64,000 nt of DNA, from the IMG/VR virus record IMGVR_UViG_3300020455_000892, positions 18,032 through 82,031 of that record, one strand, 5' to 3'. This document shows positions 32,973 through 35,681 of this stretch, piece after piece. The translations under genes were made by a program, and so were the position numbers. The DNA comes from a virus. The notes under the pieces are model-generated. The model made no database searches. It saw only the letters and a list, made by a program, of their open reading frames with translations, and had not been told where the DNA came from. The stretch's first letter is position 1. Every line of letters starts with the position of its first letter.

Positions 32973-32991
32973 TAACTACTCACTTAACTAT

Positions 32992-33023
32992 GATAAATAA
33001 CTTTAACATATATTGTATTTATA
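32992..33023. promoter_or_regulatory. Face-to-face late promoters: GATAAATA (+, 32992-32999) and TATAAATA (-, 33016-33023)
   Basis: gp55-type motifs in the 62-bp gap between divergent genes. Confidence 0.65.
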
Positions 33024-33034
33024 GGCAAAAACTA

Positions 33035-33898
33035 ATGGAAAATCCACTACAGAATTATTATCGACATAAAGATATCTATGTTAGACTTCCAACTGGAGGT
33101 AAATGGATGAGAGAACAACCAAATCTTACCGCTGATGGTGAAATTGGTGTTAGAGCTATGACTGTAAGAGATGAACTTTTGCTTAACATACCAGATGCAT
33201 TATACAATGGGCAAGCCATTTACGAGCTTATAGAAAGCATTTGTCCTGACATTGGTGATGCTAGCGATATGAGTTTGCCTGATGTAGATGTAATTATGCT
33301 AGCCAGCAGGGCTACCAGTTACGAAAAAACTTTTCCTGTTGAGGCAACATGTTCACATTGTGAAACTGCTCAAATGTTTGAAGTAGATTTACAAAAAGTT
33401 TTAGGTAATGTGAAAAGTGTATGGGAGCAAACAGAATTAGAAGTTGATGGTCTAGTTGTAGAAATGAGACCAAACACTGTATCTGCCATACATGCAAGCA
33501 ATATCAAAGTAAGTGAGACCAGCAGAGTGCTATCTTCAATGAAAGAGACTGAAACAGTAGATGAGCAATTAAAAGTACAGTACAGCGAAAACATTCAGCA
33601 GATTGCGGCGGCAAATGTAGTTTTACTAGCAGATTCTATTGTTAAAGTTACAATGCCAGACGGAAAGACAGTCGATGAACCACAACACATTATTGATTGG
33701 TTAACAAATTCAAATAGAAAAGTAAATGACATACTCACCAAACAACGCTTGAGAATGAATCTAAATGGAATAGATAAAACTTTTAAGTTTACTTGTGCTC
33801 AAGAAGATTGTGCAAAAACATTTAGTGCAGATATAGAATTTAACCCAAGTTTTTTTTTCACCAGCAACTCCGACTTCAAAAGAACTCTGAACAAGTAA
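33035..33898 (+). CDS. Baseplate hub/tail assembly chaperone (T4 gp26-like)
   Basis: MENPLQNYYR...YVRLPTGG...MTVRDELLL..PDALYNG...DVDVIMLASRATSY; CxxC (CSHC); ends FNPSFFF. Real start is likely 33035, not 32990. Confidence 0.8.
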   Translation: MENPLQNYYRHKDIYVRLPTGGKWMREQPNLTADGEIGVRAMTVRDELLLNIPDALYNGQAIYELIESICPDIGDASDMSLPDVDVIMLASRATSYEKTFPVEATCSHCETAQMFEVDLQKVLGNVKSVWEQTELEVDGLVVEMRPNTVSAIHASNIKVSETSRVLSSMKETETVDEQLKVQYSENIQQIAAANVVLLADSIVKVTMPDGKTVDEPQHIIDWLTNSNRKVNDILTKQRLRMNLNGIDKTFKFTCAQEDCAKTFSADIEFNPSFFFTSNSDFKRTLNK

Positions 33899-34113
33899 AC
33901 AAACTTATTTCATACCACGAAAACAATAGTCAACGCATAAGAGAAAGTCTATTAGAAATAGTTCTATATACTGAAGGTGCATTTAATTACACAGACCTTG
34001 AACAATATCCTTTGAGATTAATACAAGATATCAACAAAGCAATCAAGAACAAGAATGACAAGATGTCTGAAGCTATGGATAAAGCAAAAGGTACTAATCG
34101 TAGAAGATTTTAA
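33850..34113 (+). CDS. -1 frame extension of the gp26-like chaperone (gp51/GT-like), with no start codon of its own
   Basis: Open frame from the T9 run to TAA at 34111: FFFHQQLRLQKNSEQVNKLISYHENNSQRIRESLLEIVLYTEGAFNYTDLEQYPLRLIQDINKAIKNKNDKMSEAMDKAKGTNRRRF. The frame is closed upstream by TAA at 33841. Confidence 0.7.
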   Translation, partial: FFFHQQLRLQKNSEQVNKLISYHENNSQRIRESLLEIVLYTEGAFNYTDLEQYPLRLIQDINKAIKNKNDKMSEAMDKAKGTNRRRF

Positions 34114-34141
34114 ACATTCTTTCGAAGAGCTAAAGCTCATC

Positions 34142-34176
34142 GTCATACTCATTTCATTTCGTATGATAATTTTTTT
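34142..34176 (+). terminator. Possible terminator for the plus-strand chaperone gene
   Basis: GUCAUAC/GUAUGAU stem followed by AAUUUUUUU; the stem is weak. Confidence 0.35.
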
Positions 34177-34199
34177 AAACATTTTTTTATATGATACGT

Positions 34200-34507
34200 T
34201 ATTACCTTGTTTTCAGTCGCACTTAGCTTGTTACAGCCAAGTGCAAAAAAAAAACGAAACGGTCATTACCCCTCTCCAGCTCGCATCGTTATAGTATAAC
34301 CTATTGCTAGGCAGAGGCGGTTTTGCTATACCCCTTTACATACTGCTTAAAACGCAGAAACACTCTAAGCCATAACGACGACTTTTGAGTTATCCGTGGG
34401 TTACAATGGCACAGTAGAGCCCACTCTTTTGGTTCGTTTCCCTCAGGCAAGTTCCGACGGCCCGCATTGCTACGAACAATCTCAATGCTTTTAACAAAGA
34501 GGGTATG
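34200..34507 (-). ncRNA. Putative structured non-coding RNA (or structured ssDNA element) downstream of the GIY-YIG gene
   Basis: Several hairpins pair fully only on the minus strand via G-U; two GCAA tetraloops; candidate pseudoknots; higher GC than its flanks; no credible ORF. Confidence 0.6.
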
Positions 34508-34936
34508 TTACGACTGTTGTCTGTTAAGTGATTCTATAAGTGCCTTGGAACTGCCAACTCTTACGTTTATAATGCCGTTATAGTATTCATCAGTTTTAAG
34601 AACTTCACGGTCAAACTGTTCTTTGGCTTCTAAATAGCTTAGTTCGCCTCTGCTGGTGCAGTAGTACAGTATTTCTCTTGTAAAGTTTTCAGGGCCTAAT
34701 TGTTCAACATCTTCATTTAAATGGTCACTGCTTCCCCAATAAGTTCGCCAGTCACTTTCTTTAGTTGAACGTCTTTTGTTTTTCTTGCCTTTGAGAGGTT
34801 TTTTAGTTACTTTAAATTTTGCCAGTTTTTTGCCAATGTACTTTTTGCCGTTTGTGAGGTTGGTAATAAGATATACAAATCCTATGTATTCCTCACTGAT
34901 CTCTTCTACTATTTTGCCTTGATAAGTCCATTGCAT
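34508..34936 (-). CDS. Stand-alone GIY-YIG family nuclease (Seg-like catalytic domain only)
   Basis: GFVYLITNLTNGKKYIGKK...YWGSS...FTREIL...YLEAKEQ...YYN motifs, with a Lys/Arg-rich insert. Confidence 0.85.
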   Translation of the reverse strand: MQWTYQGKIVEEISEEYIGFVYLITNLTNGKKYIGKKLAKFKVTKKPLKGKKNKRRSTKESDWRTYWGSSDHLNEDVEQLGPENFTREILYYCTSRGELSYLEAKEQFDREVLKTDEYYNGIINVRVGSSKALIESLNRQQS

Positions 34937-34953
34937 TGTTATTCATTACAACA

Positions 34954-34983
34954 ATTATATATATCTTCTTTGCCGTTTGTCAA
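34954..34983 (-). promoter_or_regulatory. Sigma70 consensus promoter for the GIY-YIG gene
   Basis: TTGACA-N18-TATAAT; the -10 box is 17 nt upstream of the ATG. Confidence 0.7.
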
Positions 34984-34988
34984 CCGGT

Positions 34989-35681
34989 TTAGTGCATGTT
35001 TTTTAAGATTTCCCAAGTTTGTTTATATCCTTGATCAATCTGATGAAAATGTGTACTTGCTTGTGCGGCTGTAAAATCATTACCGCCTGGGTTGCAATGG
35101 TCACCAAAATAAATTGTTGTACCTTCTTGTTCTCTTATAGCTTGACTCTTGTCACAGCTTTTCTTAAAAATATCTATGCTGGTCTGACCAGCTACTTGTG
35201 CAATGCTATCATCGAATTCTTGATTGTAATACATTGCTACTGTATCTCTACCTTTGTTAGTCTTTTCCCAATTGGCGTATCTAGCACGTTGATCCCAGTT
35301 AGCATTACGTCCAACTATGCTAAAGTTTGCAGTACCTGTACGGTGTTCGATATGATTACCAGTCATTTCAGGATAATCAAAAGTGTGTAAGATAGTTTGT
35401 AAAAAAGTTTGTTGAGCTTCTGATAATGTCCAATCGCTTTTGTATACTTCTTTATTACCAACAAACACATGGTTACCACTGCAATGATATACTCGTGCAA
35501 AACTATTGGTCAAGTCTTCTCCAATTTGTTCAATTGTTTTAGGTCTATCACTTCCTGTTACAATCATACATGTATTGTTTGCAACAAAATCAAACATAAA
35601 CTCTTCGAAATCTGGCTCTATTGCACGTCTTGGGTCAGTAAGTGTGCCATCAACATCAAACATAAAAATTTTATTCGTCAT
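34989..35681 (-). CDS. HAD-IIB hydrolase, eukaryote-type phosphomannomutase-like
   Basis: FDVDGTLT, VTGSD, IEHRTGTANFSIVGRNA, GQTSIDIF, DK and YFGD...GGND motifs. Confidence 0.85.
   Translation of the reverse strand: MTNKIFMFDVDGTLTDPRRAIEPDFEEFMFDFVANNTCMIVTGSDRPKTIEQIGEDLTNSFARVYHCSGNHVFVGNKEVYKSDWTLSEAQQTFLQTILHTFDYPEMTGNHIEHRTGTANFSIVGRNANWDQRARYANWEKTNKGRDTVAMYYNQEFDDSIAQVAGQTSIDIFKKSCDKSQAIREQEGTTIYFGDHCNPGGNDFTAAQASTHFHQIDQGYKQTWEILKNMH

What the first reader, a model, noticed from the sequence alone, without database searches (positions are those of the whole stretch)
34114..34983. Self-contained unit: sigma70 promoter, minimal GIY-YIG nuclease, then a ~300-390 nt highly structured non-coding element (candidate nuclease-associated RNA)
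Seen: this is the only long gene-free stretch in 64 kb and it begins immediately after the nuclease stop codon. On the minus strand, the same strand as the nuclease, it forms a dense series of stems. These are GUUCGUA-GCAA-UGCGGGC (34477-34460, three G-U pairs), GUGGG/CCCAC (34424-34396), ACUC..AAGUCGU-CGUU-AUGGCUU.GAGU (34390-34362, two G-U), CUGC/GCAG (34357-34343), AGGGGU/GCCUCU (34335-34313), CCUA-GCAA-UAGG (34311-34300), a U10 run (34254-34245), and GCACUUGGCU-N6-AGCUAAGUGC (34244-34219, one G-U). The G-U pairs become A-C mismatches on the plus strand, so the structure is strand-specific. The 142-aa protein has only the GIY-YIG catalytic core plus a basic arm (KKLAKFKVTKKPLKGKKNKRRSTK). 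Established: GIY-YIG homing endonucleases such as I-TevI get specificity from extra C-terminal DNA-binding domains, which are absent here, and compact nucleases such as IscB and TnpB use adjacent structured RNAs. Inference: this may be an undescribed nuclease-RNA complex, possibly RNA-directed. It could instead be a nickase plus structured origin or packaging site, or an independent phage ncRNA.
Basis: partly seen in the sequence, partly recalled or inferred. Interest (0 to 1): 0.85.

Follow-up and report, generated by a model that had tools for sequence, protein, structure and literature searches.

The report
Knotted phage RNA beside nuclease gene
The gene-free stretch behind a small DNA-cutting enzyme gene of this uncultured marine T4-like phage encodes a real, roughly 310-base, doubly knotted RNA of an almost uncatalogued family, which looks like a gene in its own right and not a guide for the enzyme; its job is unknown.

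Summary
Window 34196-34505 (minus strand) encodes a folded RNA of about 310 nt. I found ten helices and two pseudoknots: 97.2% of cells paired against 31-45% in slid controls, and 23 pairs with changes on both sides. The TTGACA-18-TATAAT promoter matches 12/12, and the 142-aa protein is a full SegE-type GIY-YIG domain.

The RNA matches no Rfam family. It belongs to a modular superfamily of uncultured marine T4-like phages, and one relative carries Rfam Polynucleobacter-1 (RF01718) as its 5' domain. It has two "twin boxes", short words that flank a long hairpin and change together.

An RNA-guided nuclease is not supported:
- A complete phage genome has the nuclease without the RNA.
- Two loci have the same RNA behind an unrelated PD-(D/E)XK nuclease.
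- A 94%-identical nuclease is followed by a different RNA type.
- One RNA class has its own promoter.

Best reading: an independent early ncRNA gene that travels with a Seg-like nuclease gene as a laterally exchanged cassette. Its function is unknown. This scan had already found the family on other DNA.

The parts
34954..34983 (-). Sigma-70-type early promoter TTGACA-18-TATAAT in front of the nuclease gene; left edge of the exchanged cassette
   Evidence: 12 of 12 consensus positions. TTGACA is kept in part of the related class I loci. Identity to relatives rises at about this point.
34508..34936 (-). Stand-alone GIY-YIG nuclease gene, 142 aa, SegE-type catalytic domain only
   Evidence: Pfam PF19835, E 3.3e-36, profile 1-123/123. 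Y22, Y33, G35, R55, E103 and N120 are invariant in 8 homologues. Single copy in the 82-kb record.
34196..34505 (-). Structured non-coding RNA, type A class I, about 310 nt: helices P1-P10, two pseudoknots, two twin boxes
   Evidence: Covariation counts. No Rfam match. Model R1 scores 161.8 bits on 34284-34426. The ends are inferred from where conservation stops, not mapped.
34440..34503 (-). 5' domain: P1 (34503-34499 with 34444-34440), P2 (34489-34486 with 34449-34446), conserved UUGAG, variable hairpin P3 (34477-34460)
   Evidence: P1 and P2 covary (helices 1 and 2). P3 folds as one hairpin in 34 of 35 distinct versions.
34287..34377 (-). Pseudoknot PK2: P5 loop CGUUA (34377-34373) pairs with UAACG (34291-34287)
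   Evidence: 41 of 41 sequences pair at all 5 positions; 4 of the 5 pairs change on both sides (helix 5).
34320..34353 (-). Pseudoknot PK1: P6 loop GUUU (34353-34350) pairs with P7 loop AAAC (34323-34320)
   Evidence: 93.3% of cells paired; 2 of 4 pairs change on both sides (helix 7).
34262..34271 (-). Twin box 1 (GGGUAAUGAC), displayed in the loop of the inferred hairpin P9 (34276-34256)
   Evidence: P9 was read by eye from the alignments and not counted formally.
34209..34254 (-). Long hairpin between the boxes: U-run (34254-34245), P10 (34244-34235 with 34228-34219), then GACUGAAAAC whose GAAAAC (34214-34209) can pair with the U-run
   Evidence: P10 is 100% paired in 54 sequences with one double change and 99.3% paired in 41 with two. 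The extension has partial support. A comparable hairpin followed by GACUGAAAC follows the unrelated type B core.
34198..34207 (-). Twin box 2 (AGGUAAUAAC)
   Evidence: The two boxes change together between classes and within class II and type B.
34123..34166 (.). Two conserved hairpins (UCAUAC..GUAUGA and CGAUGAGC-UUUA-GCUCUUCG) between the RNA and the convergent + strand coding region; possible terminators, outside the swapped RNA unit
   Evidence: Conserved in A1 and kept in L008, where the RNA itself is replaced. The simple terminator scan calls none, so the role is inferred.

Best explanation
The stretch is an RNA gene of its own, not a guide for the nuclease.

The RNA. It is made early in infection. 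Here it is read through from the sigma-70-type promoter in front of the nuclease gene. In the sister class it comes from a promoter of its own. It folds into a compact core of ten helices locked by two pseudoknots. It ends in a long hairpin flanked by two identical short single-stranded 'twin boxes'.

The nuclease. The small GIY-YIG gene in front is a Seg-like, free-standing nuclease gene that travels with the RNA gene as one cassette. As T4 SegB does for the neighbouring tRNA genes, it probably favours inheritance of its own allele of the locus in mixed infections. That would explain why the cassette is more alike between phages than its flanks are.

What is shown and what is inferred:
- Shown: the fold, the family, the linkage, the cassette-wise exchange, and the fact that each partner can occur without the other.
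- Inferred: transcription from these promoters, processing at the long hairpin, and homing-type behaviour of the nuclease.
- Guess: the RNA acts in trans by binding two copies of one partner (a dimeric protein or a nucleic acid) through its twin boxes.
For: Fold: 49 pairs are 97.2% paired against 31-45% in slid controls, 23 pairs have double changes, and both pseudoknots covary. Class I alone gives 95.3%.

Family:
- 89 stretches in IMG/VR match the first type A core pattern and 103 match the second, broader one; the two sets overlap.
- 94 metagenome stretches match.
- No match in 50,697 cultured phage records. No match to the type A pattern in one genome for each of 185,579 bacterial and archaeal species.

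Independence of the RNA:
- Class II has a conserved promoter overlapping the nuclease stop codon in 21 of 21 distinct sequences.
- The same RNA and promoter follow a PF24608 PDDEXK nuclease in L370 and L405.
- The type B RNA in L284 has no nuclease within 1.4 kb upstream.
- The RNA type is swapped behind a 94%-identical nuclease in L008.

Independence of the nuclease: Melnitz and cyanophage homologues lack the RNA.

Cassette: in pairwise comparisons the block from the promoter to just past box 2 is 85-99% identical. The PMM gene to its left is 60-76% identical and the DNA to its right 50-65%, for example in L111, L107, L093 and L112.

Parallel: Syn9 and S-RIM2 homologues sit just upstream of a tRNA-Arg gene. 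T4 SegB lies in the tRNA cluster and drives its preferred inheritance (PMC2330249, abstract start in the listing).
Against: - The RNA is almost never without a nuclease gene directly upstream: 242 of 245 loci with enough flank have the GIY-YIG gene (the scan sets overlap in part), 2 have a PDDEXK nuclease, and 1 has none. For a mere selfish neighbour I would expect many nuclease-free alleles. None was seen for class I.
- The GIY-YIG protein is 72-99% identical across phages whose gp26 is only 24-70% identical. That is unlike decaying homing endonuclease genes.
- The protein lacks any DNA-binding domain, so how it would find a homing site is open.
- No cleavage site, no empty allele and no transcript ends are known.
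- RNA-library contigs cover the RNA and the nuclease gene only at low depth and cannot prove transcription.
- The twin boxes have no explanation under this reading.
Confidence: 0.6

Rival explanations
1. Nuclease-RNA partnership without guiding. The RNA binds the neighbouring nuclease, for example two protomers on the two identical boxes. It acts as scaffold, inhibitor or timer of the enzyme, protecting phage DNA or limiting toxicity.
For: Near-obligate adjacency and same orientation in four independent scans. A nuclease stays upstream even when its fold changes. The RNA-linked subfamily has a basic arm 5 residues longer than the cyanophage homologues. Two identical boxes suit a dimer.
Against: - Two unrelated folds, GIY-YIG and PD-(D/E)XK, would have to bind the same RNA.
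- A 94%-identical nuclease sits in front of two RNA types with unrelated cores.
- Melnitz has the long basic arm but no RNA.
- L284 has the RNA without a nuclease.
- Box words change between close relatives while the protein stays 70-80% identical.
Confidence: 0.17
2. RNA-guided DNA targeting. The RNA supplies sequence specificity to the domain-less GIY-YIG core, in the manner of omega-RNA with IscB or TnpB, perhaps through the twin boxes.
For: The protein is a catalytic core only. The RNA starts 2-5 nt after its stop codon in class I. The twin boxes are short single-stranded words that vary between lineages yet stay identical to each other, as a base-pairing element would.
Against: - All the points listed against a partnership apply here too.
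- No terminal variable guide next to a constant scaffold.
- The boxes are only 7-10 nt.
- The window box word is not enriched elsewhere in the window: 5 matches against 6.4 expected.
- No HEARO or other Rfam guide family matches.
- Cyanophage homologues of the nuclease work without such an RNA.
Confidence: 0.06
3. Cis-acting 3' untranslated region. The structure only stabilises or regulates the nuclease mRNA, as a 3' exonuclease block, an RNase III site or a translational control element, and has no function of its own.
For: In class I there is no promoter between the stop codon and the RNA, so they should be co-transcribed. Contigs from RNA libraries of two studies bridge the stop codon: X16 record 5 and X17 record 11. 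The long irregular hairpin resembles RNase III sites of phage early transcripts (recalled, not tested).
Against: - A 310-nt double-pseudoknot core with invariant single-stranded segments is far more than mRNA protection needs.
- Class II has its own promoter.
- The RNA persists when the upstream gene is replaced or absent.
Confidence: 0.1
4. DNA-level element: a replication origin, packaging site or recombination site whose repeats and hairpins act in DNA. The twin boxes would be a target-site duplication around an inserted hairpin element.
For: Direct repeats flanking a hairpin look like a target duplication. The locus is a boundary of genetic exchange.
Against: - G-U-specific, strand-specific covariation and two pseudoknots point to RNA.
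- A one-off duplication would let the two copies drift apart. Instead they stay identical through at least 8 different words.
- There is only one copy of the hairpin element in the window.
Confidence: 0.04

Closest known systems
Polynucleobacter-1 RNA motif (Rfam RF01718; Weinberg et al. 2010, PMC2864571; I saw only its Table 1 row)
   Same: A relative of this RNA (L076) starts right after a 76%-identical GIY-YIG gene. Its first 147 nt match RF01718 at 107.8 bits against a cut-off of 37, E 1.9e-22. The same RNA goes on with a P7-like hairpin ending in AACC-GCC and with twin boxes around a hairpin. The catalogued motif is therefore one module of this superfamily.
   Different: The window RNA does not match RF01718 at all; its 5' domain is different. 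The Rfam motif is 141 nt, was listed as probably cis-regulatory in Burkholderiales and fresh-water or estuary samples, and has no described function. My one text search found no later paper on it.
T4 segB in the tRNA gene cluster (free-standing GIY-YIG homing endonuclease beside structured RNA genes; PMC2330249 and PMC13096335, abstract starts in the listing)
   Same: A GIY-YIG gene embedded next to structured RNA genes in a T4-like phage. The nuclease plus neighbouring RNA genes are inherited as a block. In Syn9 and S-RIM2 the homologue of this nuclease sits just upstream of a tRNA-Arg gene. The cassette has elevated identity.
   Different: The RNA here is not a tRNA. The nuclease has no DNA-binding domain and is conserved rather than sporadic. 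No cleavage site or marker exclusion has been shown.
OMEGA systems: omega-RNA/HEARO with IscB, reRNA with TnpB
   Same: A compact nuclease gene with a large structured RNA directly at its end; the two move together.
   Different: The nuclease fold is different (GIY-YIG, not RuvC/HNH). There is no Rfam HEARO match and no terminal variable guide. Each partner occurs without the other.
GOLLD and ROOL, large ornate RNAs of phages and prophages (Rfam RF01998, RF03087; names recalled and as cited in earlier scan notes)
   Same: Large, multi-pseudoknotted, phage-borne RNAs of unknown function.
   Different: No sequence or structure match. This RNA is smaller, is tied to a nuclease gene, and has co-varying twin boxes.

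Membership tests
GIY-YIG nuclease, Pfam PF19835 SegE_GIY-YIG | Profile match above the curated cut-off over the whole domain | tested here: met
   124.7 bits against a cut-off of 25, residues 3-123 on profile 1-123/123.
GIY-YIG nuclease, Pfam PF19835 SegE_GIY-YIG | GIY and YIG tyrosines and the catalytic Arg, Glu and Asn are kept | tested here: met
   Y22, Y33, G35, R55, E103 and N120 are invariant in 8 homologues down to 37% identity. The roles of these residues are recalled from the I-TevI literature.
Free-standing homing endonuclease (Seg/Mob type) | Separate DNA-binding domain that gives site specificity | tested here: not met
   142 aa, catalytic domain only.
Free-standing homing endonuclease (Seg/Mob type) | Sporadic presence, replaceable by other nuclease genes, and a co-conversion tract of raised identity | tested here: inconclusive
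   Raised identity of the cassette and replacement by a PDDEXK gene in 2 of 62 loci. But the gene is present in nearly every locus and is highly conserved.
Free-standing homing endonuclease (Seg/Mob type) | Cuts the nuclease-free allele and biases inheritance | not testable with these tools
   Needs enzyme assays and phage crosses.
Rfam RF01718 Polynucleobacter-1 | Covariance-model score at or above the gathering score of 37 bits | tested here: not met
   No hit in the window at gathering score or at E up to 10. Met only by the relative L076, at 107.8 bits.
OMEGA-type guide RNA (works-like comparison) | Constant scaffold plus a variable terminal guide, and obligatory pairing with one nuclease family | tested here: not met
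   No variable terminal segment. The nuclease occurs without the RNA. The RNA occurs with another nuclease or none.
Group I intron | Interrupts a host gene with flanking exons; matches an intron model | tested here: not met
   The upstream PMM-like and GIY-YIG ORFs are complete, and no minus-strand ORF follows the RNA. No Rfam intron match.
tRNA / tmRNA | Detected by ARAGORN or the Rfam models | tested here: not met
   0 genes in the window; no Rfam match.
'Twin-box' phage RNA (label used in earlier unpublished notes of this scan) | Large pseudoknotted RNA behind a small nuclease gene, with two short boxes that change together and flank a hairpin | tested here: met
   Pseudoknots. Boxes at 34271-34262 and 34207-34198. 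The boxes change together in class II and type B relatives. Within class I the word GGUAAU does not vary.

The most novel reading that the evidence does not exclude
The twin boxes are a programmable recognition element. Two identical single-stranded words, held at the foot of a long hairpin by a knotted scaffold, would base-pair with a repeated or two-fold target (DNA or RNA of a host or a competing phage). They would then recruit whichever small nuclease is encoded upstream. That would be a new kind of RNA-aimed nuclease system built on catalytic-core-only GIY-YIG or PD-(D/E)XK enzymes.
Probability: 0.08. Interest if true: 0.9.

Novelty: new variant of a known kind. Interest (0 to 1): 0.62.

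Why it matters
Large, multiply pseudoknotted RNAs are rare, and most known ones turned out to be ribozymes or central machines. This family is abundant in uncultured marine T4-like phages: the four pattern scans returned 89, 103, at least 120 and 94 stretches, in overlapping sets. It is expressed from early promoters. It is missing from RNA catalogues except for one 141-nt module with no known function. It also shows an unusual signal, two short boxes that stay identical while they evolve.

Working out its partner would add a new player to phage-host biology in the ocean. It would also settle whether small nuclease genes merely ride beside it or use it. The locus is a clean natural example of nuclease genes marking boundaries of genetic exchange between phages.

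Tried and rejected
Known RNA families. Rfam at gathering score on the whole window gave 0 matches. At E up to 10 on 33800-35100 there were only five chance-level snoRNA or sRNA hits, with E of 0.93 or worse. Rfam on L008, L060 and L077 gave 0 matches. ARAGORN found nothing. Group I intron, tmRNA, RNase P, GOLLD/ROOL and HEARO were considered and dropped for lack of any match and, for an intron, lack of exons.

Pseudoknot GUAUAGC/GUUAUAC from another first-reader note. Only the first two pairs hold; the third to fifth pairs hold in 28 to 36 of 54 sequences. Rejected as stated.

Cis partner for the twin boxes. No complementary site at a consistent place in 66 type B RNAs. The box-like words in the 5' leader of the window's nuclease gene are not conserved in relatives. 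Small ORFs starting in box 1 are not conserved in frame or length (read by eye).

Longest-direct-repeat statistic. It is no longer than in shuffled sequence. The twin-box signal rests on position and on the words changing together, not on repeat length.

RNA libraries. Contigs of X16, X17 and X19 cover parts of the RNA and the nuclease gene at depth 2-7, and X15 covers only the PMM gene. Contigs show neither strand, ends nor level, and DNA carry-over is possible, so I do not count this as proof of transcription. RNA runs from the same samples as the best DNA holders held next to none of the words, which is no proof of absence.

Other searches:
- Simple terminator scan: none called.
- Sequence search of solved structures with the nuclease: only a chance hit, E 0.73.
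- Pfam on the small 86-aa (L008) and 69-aa (L284) ORFs: nothing.
- Model R1 hit in S-SSM7 (18.6 bits, E 0.018), inside a coding region: taken as chance.
- Literature searches for a described GIY-YIG-linked structured RNA found nothing relevant.
Full report
WHAT IS THERE

The window comes from an 82-kb IMG/VR virus record. The phage is an uncultured marine T4-like myophage. Its nearest named relative over this stretch is Methylophilales phage Melnitz, Kyanoviridae, and the best DNA holders are marine metagenome runs.

On the minus strand the order of features is:
- a gp46-like gene and two small ORFs;
- a phosphomannomutase-like HAD gene (PMM) at 34989-35681;
- a perfect TTGACA-18-TATAAT promoter at 34983-34954;
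- a 142-aa GIY-YIG gene at 34508-34936;
- 394 nt without a gene;
- convergent plus-strand coding that ends at 34113, behind the gp26-like baseplate hub gene at 32990-33898.

CHECK OF THE OBSERVATION

The minus strand folds better than shuffled sequence: z -2.88, with 1 of 100 shuffles as good. The plus strand does not: z -0.97, with 12 of 100. GC rises to 0.43-0.47 in the RNA against 0.29-0.40 in the flanks. Once ORFs of 75 aa or more in any frame are masked, this is the only stretch of 200 nt or more left in the 64 kb.

The decisive test is comparative.
- A conserved-core pattern found 89 stretches in IMG/VR.
- A broader pattern found 103, including a sister class.
- On 54 distinct class I sequences, my 51-pair structure is 95.3% paired against 35-47% when partners are slid by 1-3 columns. 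15 pairs change on both sides against 2-6 in the slid controls, and no shuffle of 500 reaches the covariation score.
- On 25 class I plus 16 class II sequences, the shared core with two pseudoknots is 97.2% paired against 31-45%, with 23 doubly changed pairs.
- One-sided changes are C-G to U-G and A-U to G-U, so the strand is the minus strand.

ANATOMY (window coordinates, minus strand)

- P1: 34503-34499 with 34444-34440.
- P2: 34489-34486 with 34449-34446. P2 encloses a conserved UUGAG and P3 (34477-34460).
- A conserved A-rich joiner follows.
- P4: 34424-34396.
- P5: 34390-34362.
- P6: 34357-34343.
- P7: 34335-34313.
- P8: 34312-34299.
- Pseudoknot PK2: the P5 loop CGUUA (34377-34373) pairs with UAACG (34291-34287). 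All five positions pair in 41 of 41 sequences, and four of the five change on both sides. In class II the pairs are UACCA/UGGUA, UACUA/UAGUA and UAAUA/UAUUA.
- Pseudoknot PK1: the P6 loop pairs with the P7 loop (34353-34350 with 34323-34320). Examples are GUUUU/AAAAC, GUUG/CAAC and GUCUU/AAGAC.
- An inferred hairpin P9 shows box 1 (GGGUAAUGAC, 34271-34262) in its loop.
- Then the U-run, P10 (34244-34219), GACUGAAAAC, and box 2 (AGGUAAUAAC, 34207-34198).
- Folding and partial pair counts suggest that the U-run pairs with GAAAAC. The two boxes would then sit at the foot of one long irregular hairpin.
- A pseudoknot proposed in another first-reader note (GUAUAGC with GUUAUAC) is not supported beyond two pairs.

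THE FAMILY IS BROADER AND MODULAR

I looked downstream of 58 close homologues of the nuclease that had at least 350 nt of flank:
- 10 have this RNA (type A).
- 29 have a different core (type B). L008 is one of them. It lies at the very same PMM-gp26 locus, with a 94%-identical nuclease and 92-95%-identical flanking genes.
- L076 and L078 are further variants.
- L028, L033, L050 and L062 are hybrids that mix the 5' domain of one type with the core of another. My covariance model of the type A core scores L028 at 21.8 bits and L033 at 14.6 bits.

In L076 the first 147 nt after the nuclease gene are an Rfam Polynucleobacter-1 RNA (RF01718, 107.8 bits, E 1.9e-22). That 141-nt motif was listed in 2010 as a probable cis-regulatory RNA of Burkholderiales and fresh-water or estuary samples (Table 1 row). 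The one text search I ran found no later paper on it. The window RNA itself does not match it.

All types end alike: box, long hairpin, a GACUGAAAC-like strand, box.

TWIN BOXES

In 68 of 68 distinct type B RNAs a word after CUC and a word after UCU lie 45-80 nt apart. They are identical over their first 7 letters in 67 of 68, through eight different words: ACAUGAA, ACAUAAU, ACAUGAU, GCAUAAA, ACGUGAA, GCAUGAA, GUAUGAA and ACAUGAG.

In class II the shared words are UGUCAAG, GGUGAAG, UGCCAAG and UGUGAAG. In class I, which includes the window, the word is GGUAAU in both boxes and does not vary.

I found no consistent complementary site within the RNA and no enrichment of the word elsewhere in the window. 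I have no explanation for the boxes. Two identical docking sites for one partner is the simplest guess.

LINKAGE TO THE NUCLEASE

The GIY-YIG gene lies directly upstream, on the same strand, in:
- 77 of 77 class I loci with at least 318 nt of left flank; the other 3 of 80 have under 240 nt;
- 35 of 35 new class II loci;
- 70 of 71 type B loci with at least 900 nt of flank;
- 60 of 62 metagenome loci with at least 900 nt of flank.

These sets overlap in part, because IMG/VR contigs come from the same metagenomes.

The exceptions are informative. L370 and L405 have the same class II RNA with the same promoter, but behind a 182-aa PF24608 PDDEXK_15 phage endonuclease (E 1.5e-24). L284 has a type B RNA behind a 69-aa ORF with no nuclease within 1.4 kb.

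The nuclease also occurs without the RNA:
- 17 of the 58 loci have other downstream sequence.
- The complete Melnitz genome has a 79%-identical protein with the same basic arm. It has no type A or B core at up to 2-3 mismatches, no RF01718, and a best model hit of 10.3 bits.
- 361 cultured phage records, mostly cyanophages, carry 35-47%-identical homologues, often mislabelled 'NAD synthetase'.
- None of the five I opened has such a gap. Two of them, Syn9 and S-RIM2, have a tRNA-Arg gene just downstream.

EXPRESSION SIGNALS

In the window the only promoter-like site of full strength precedes the nuclease gene. The RNA's first helix starts 5 nt after the stop codon, so read-through is expected.

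In class II the nuclease gene abuts the preceding ORF without a promoter. A TTGACA-N17-TATTAT promoter overlaps its stop codon in 21 of 21 distinct sequences. The same promoter is kept behind the PDDEXK gene. The RNA is therefore a transcription unit of its own in that class.

Contigs from three RNA-library runs cover the RNA and the nuclease gene at low depth, and two of them bridge the stop codon. That is compatible with co-transcription but proves nothing.

CASSETTE BEHAVIOUR

In pairwise sliding comparisons the block from the promoter to just past box 2 is 85-99% identical in phages such as L111, L107, L093 and L112. Their PMM gene is 60-76% identical and the DNA beyond box 2 is 50-65% identical. 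The block is even more alike than the conserved gp46 gene.

In L008 the breakpoints of the RNA swap lie in the last codons of the nuclease gene and just before the two conserved hairpins at 34166-34123.

Both findings fit lateral exchange with nuclease genes at the boundaries. That pattern has been described for phage nuclease genes in general (PMC10448857, abstract start in the listing).

INTERPRETATION

The RNA is real and belongs to an essentially undescribed family. This scan has met the family repeatedly on other DNA and called it 'twin-box RNA'. I found the boxes before reading those notes. I tested two of their claims here: the RF01718 link and the swappable nuclease. Both hold.

The idea of an RNA-guided GIY-YIG enzyme does not fit, because each partner occurs without the other and the same RNA tolerates an unrelated nuclease fold.

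My best reading (0.6) is an independent early ncRNA gene travelling with a Seg-like nuclease gene as one cassette, on the model of T4 segB and the tRNA genes.

What keeps the rival partnership reading alive (0.17, plus 0.06 for true guiding) is that a nuclease gene of some kind sits upstream in all but one locus. Also, the GIY-YIG protein is far better conserved than its neighbours and has no DNA-binding domain of its own.

What the RNA does is unknown.

LIMITS

- RNA ends, strand of transcription, P9 and the P10 extension are inferred.
- The alignments are MAFFT alignments, checked by eye.
- The sequences fall into a few clades, so cell counts overstate the number of independent events.

Noticed in passing
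window 33859-34113 (+): The frame after the gp26-like gene stays open for 84 codons with no ATG until near its end, and stops at 34113. It is conserved like coding sequence in relatives. This fits another first-reader note that proposes a -1 frameshift extension of gp26 at the T9 run. I did not test the frameshift itself.
   Followed up: partly
L008:2919-3179 (+) and L284:13734-13943 (-): A small 69-86-aa ORF with a C-x2-C motif and a shared ...HGGK(V/I)IC N.C....VAW(I/L)PK... ending sits directly in front of the type B RNA in these two loci. In L284 it does so without any nuclease gene. No Pfam match.
   Followed up: partly
L219 (Synechococcus phage Syn9) 2453-3170 and L222 (S-RIM2) 1465-2155: The cyanophage homologue of this nuclease (T4-like gene cluster 213, often annotated 'NAD synthetase') lies just upstream of a tRNA-Arg gene in 2 of 5 cultured phages opened. 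This recalls T4 segB in the tRNA cluster.
   Followed up: partly
L057, first 260 nt after the GIY-YIG stop: One type B locus has an extra stretch that looks like a small ORF inserted between the nuclease gene and the RNA. Seven of 71 type B loci have 480-590 nt instead of 140-400 nt between the gene and the core motif.
   Followed up: no
PHROG 447 and many GenBank cyanophage records: The family of this GIY-YIG protein is widely labelled 'NAD synthetase', although Pfam places it in SegE_GIY-YIG with intact catalytic residues. This is probably a propagated misannotation.
   Followed up: partly
window 34123-34166: Two conserved hairpins lie between the RNA and the convergent coding region. They are shared by loci with type A and type B RNAs. 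On the plus strand they are followed by a T-rich run, so they may be terminators, but the simple scan calls none.
   Followed up: partly
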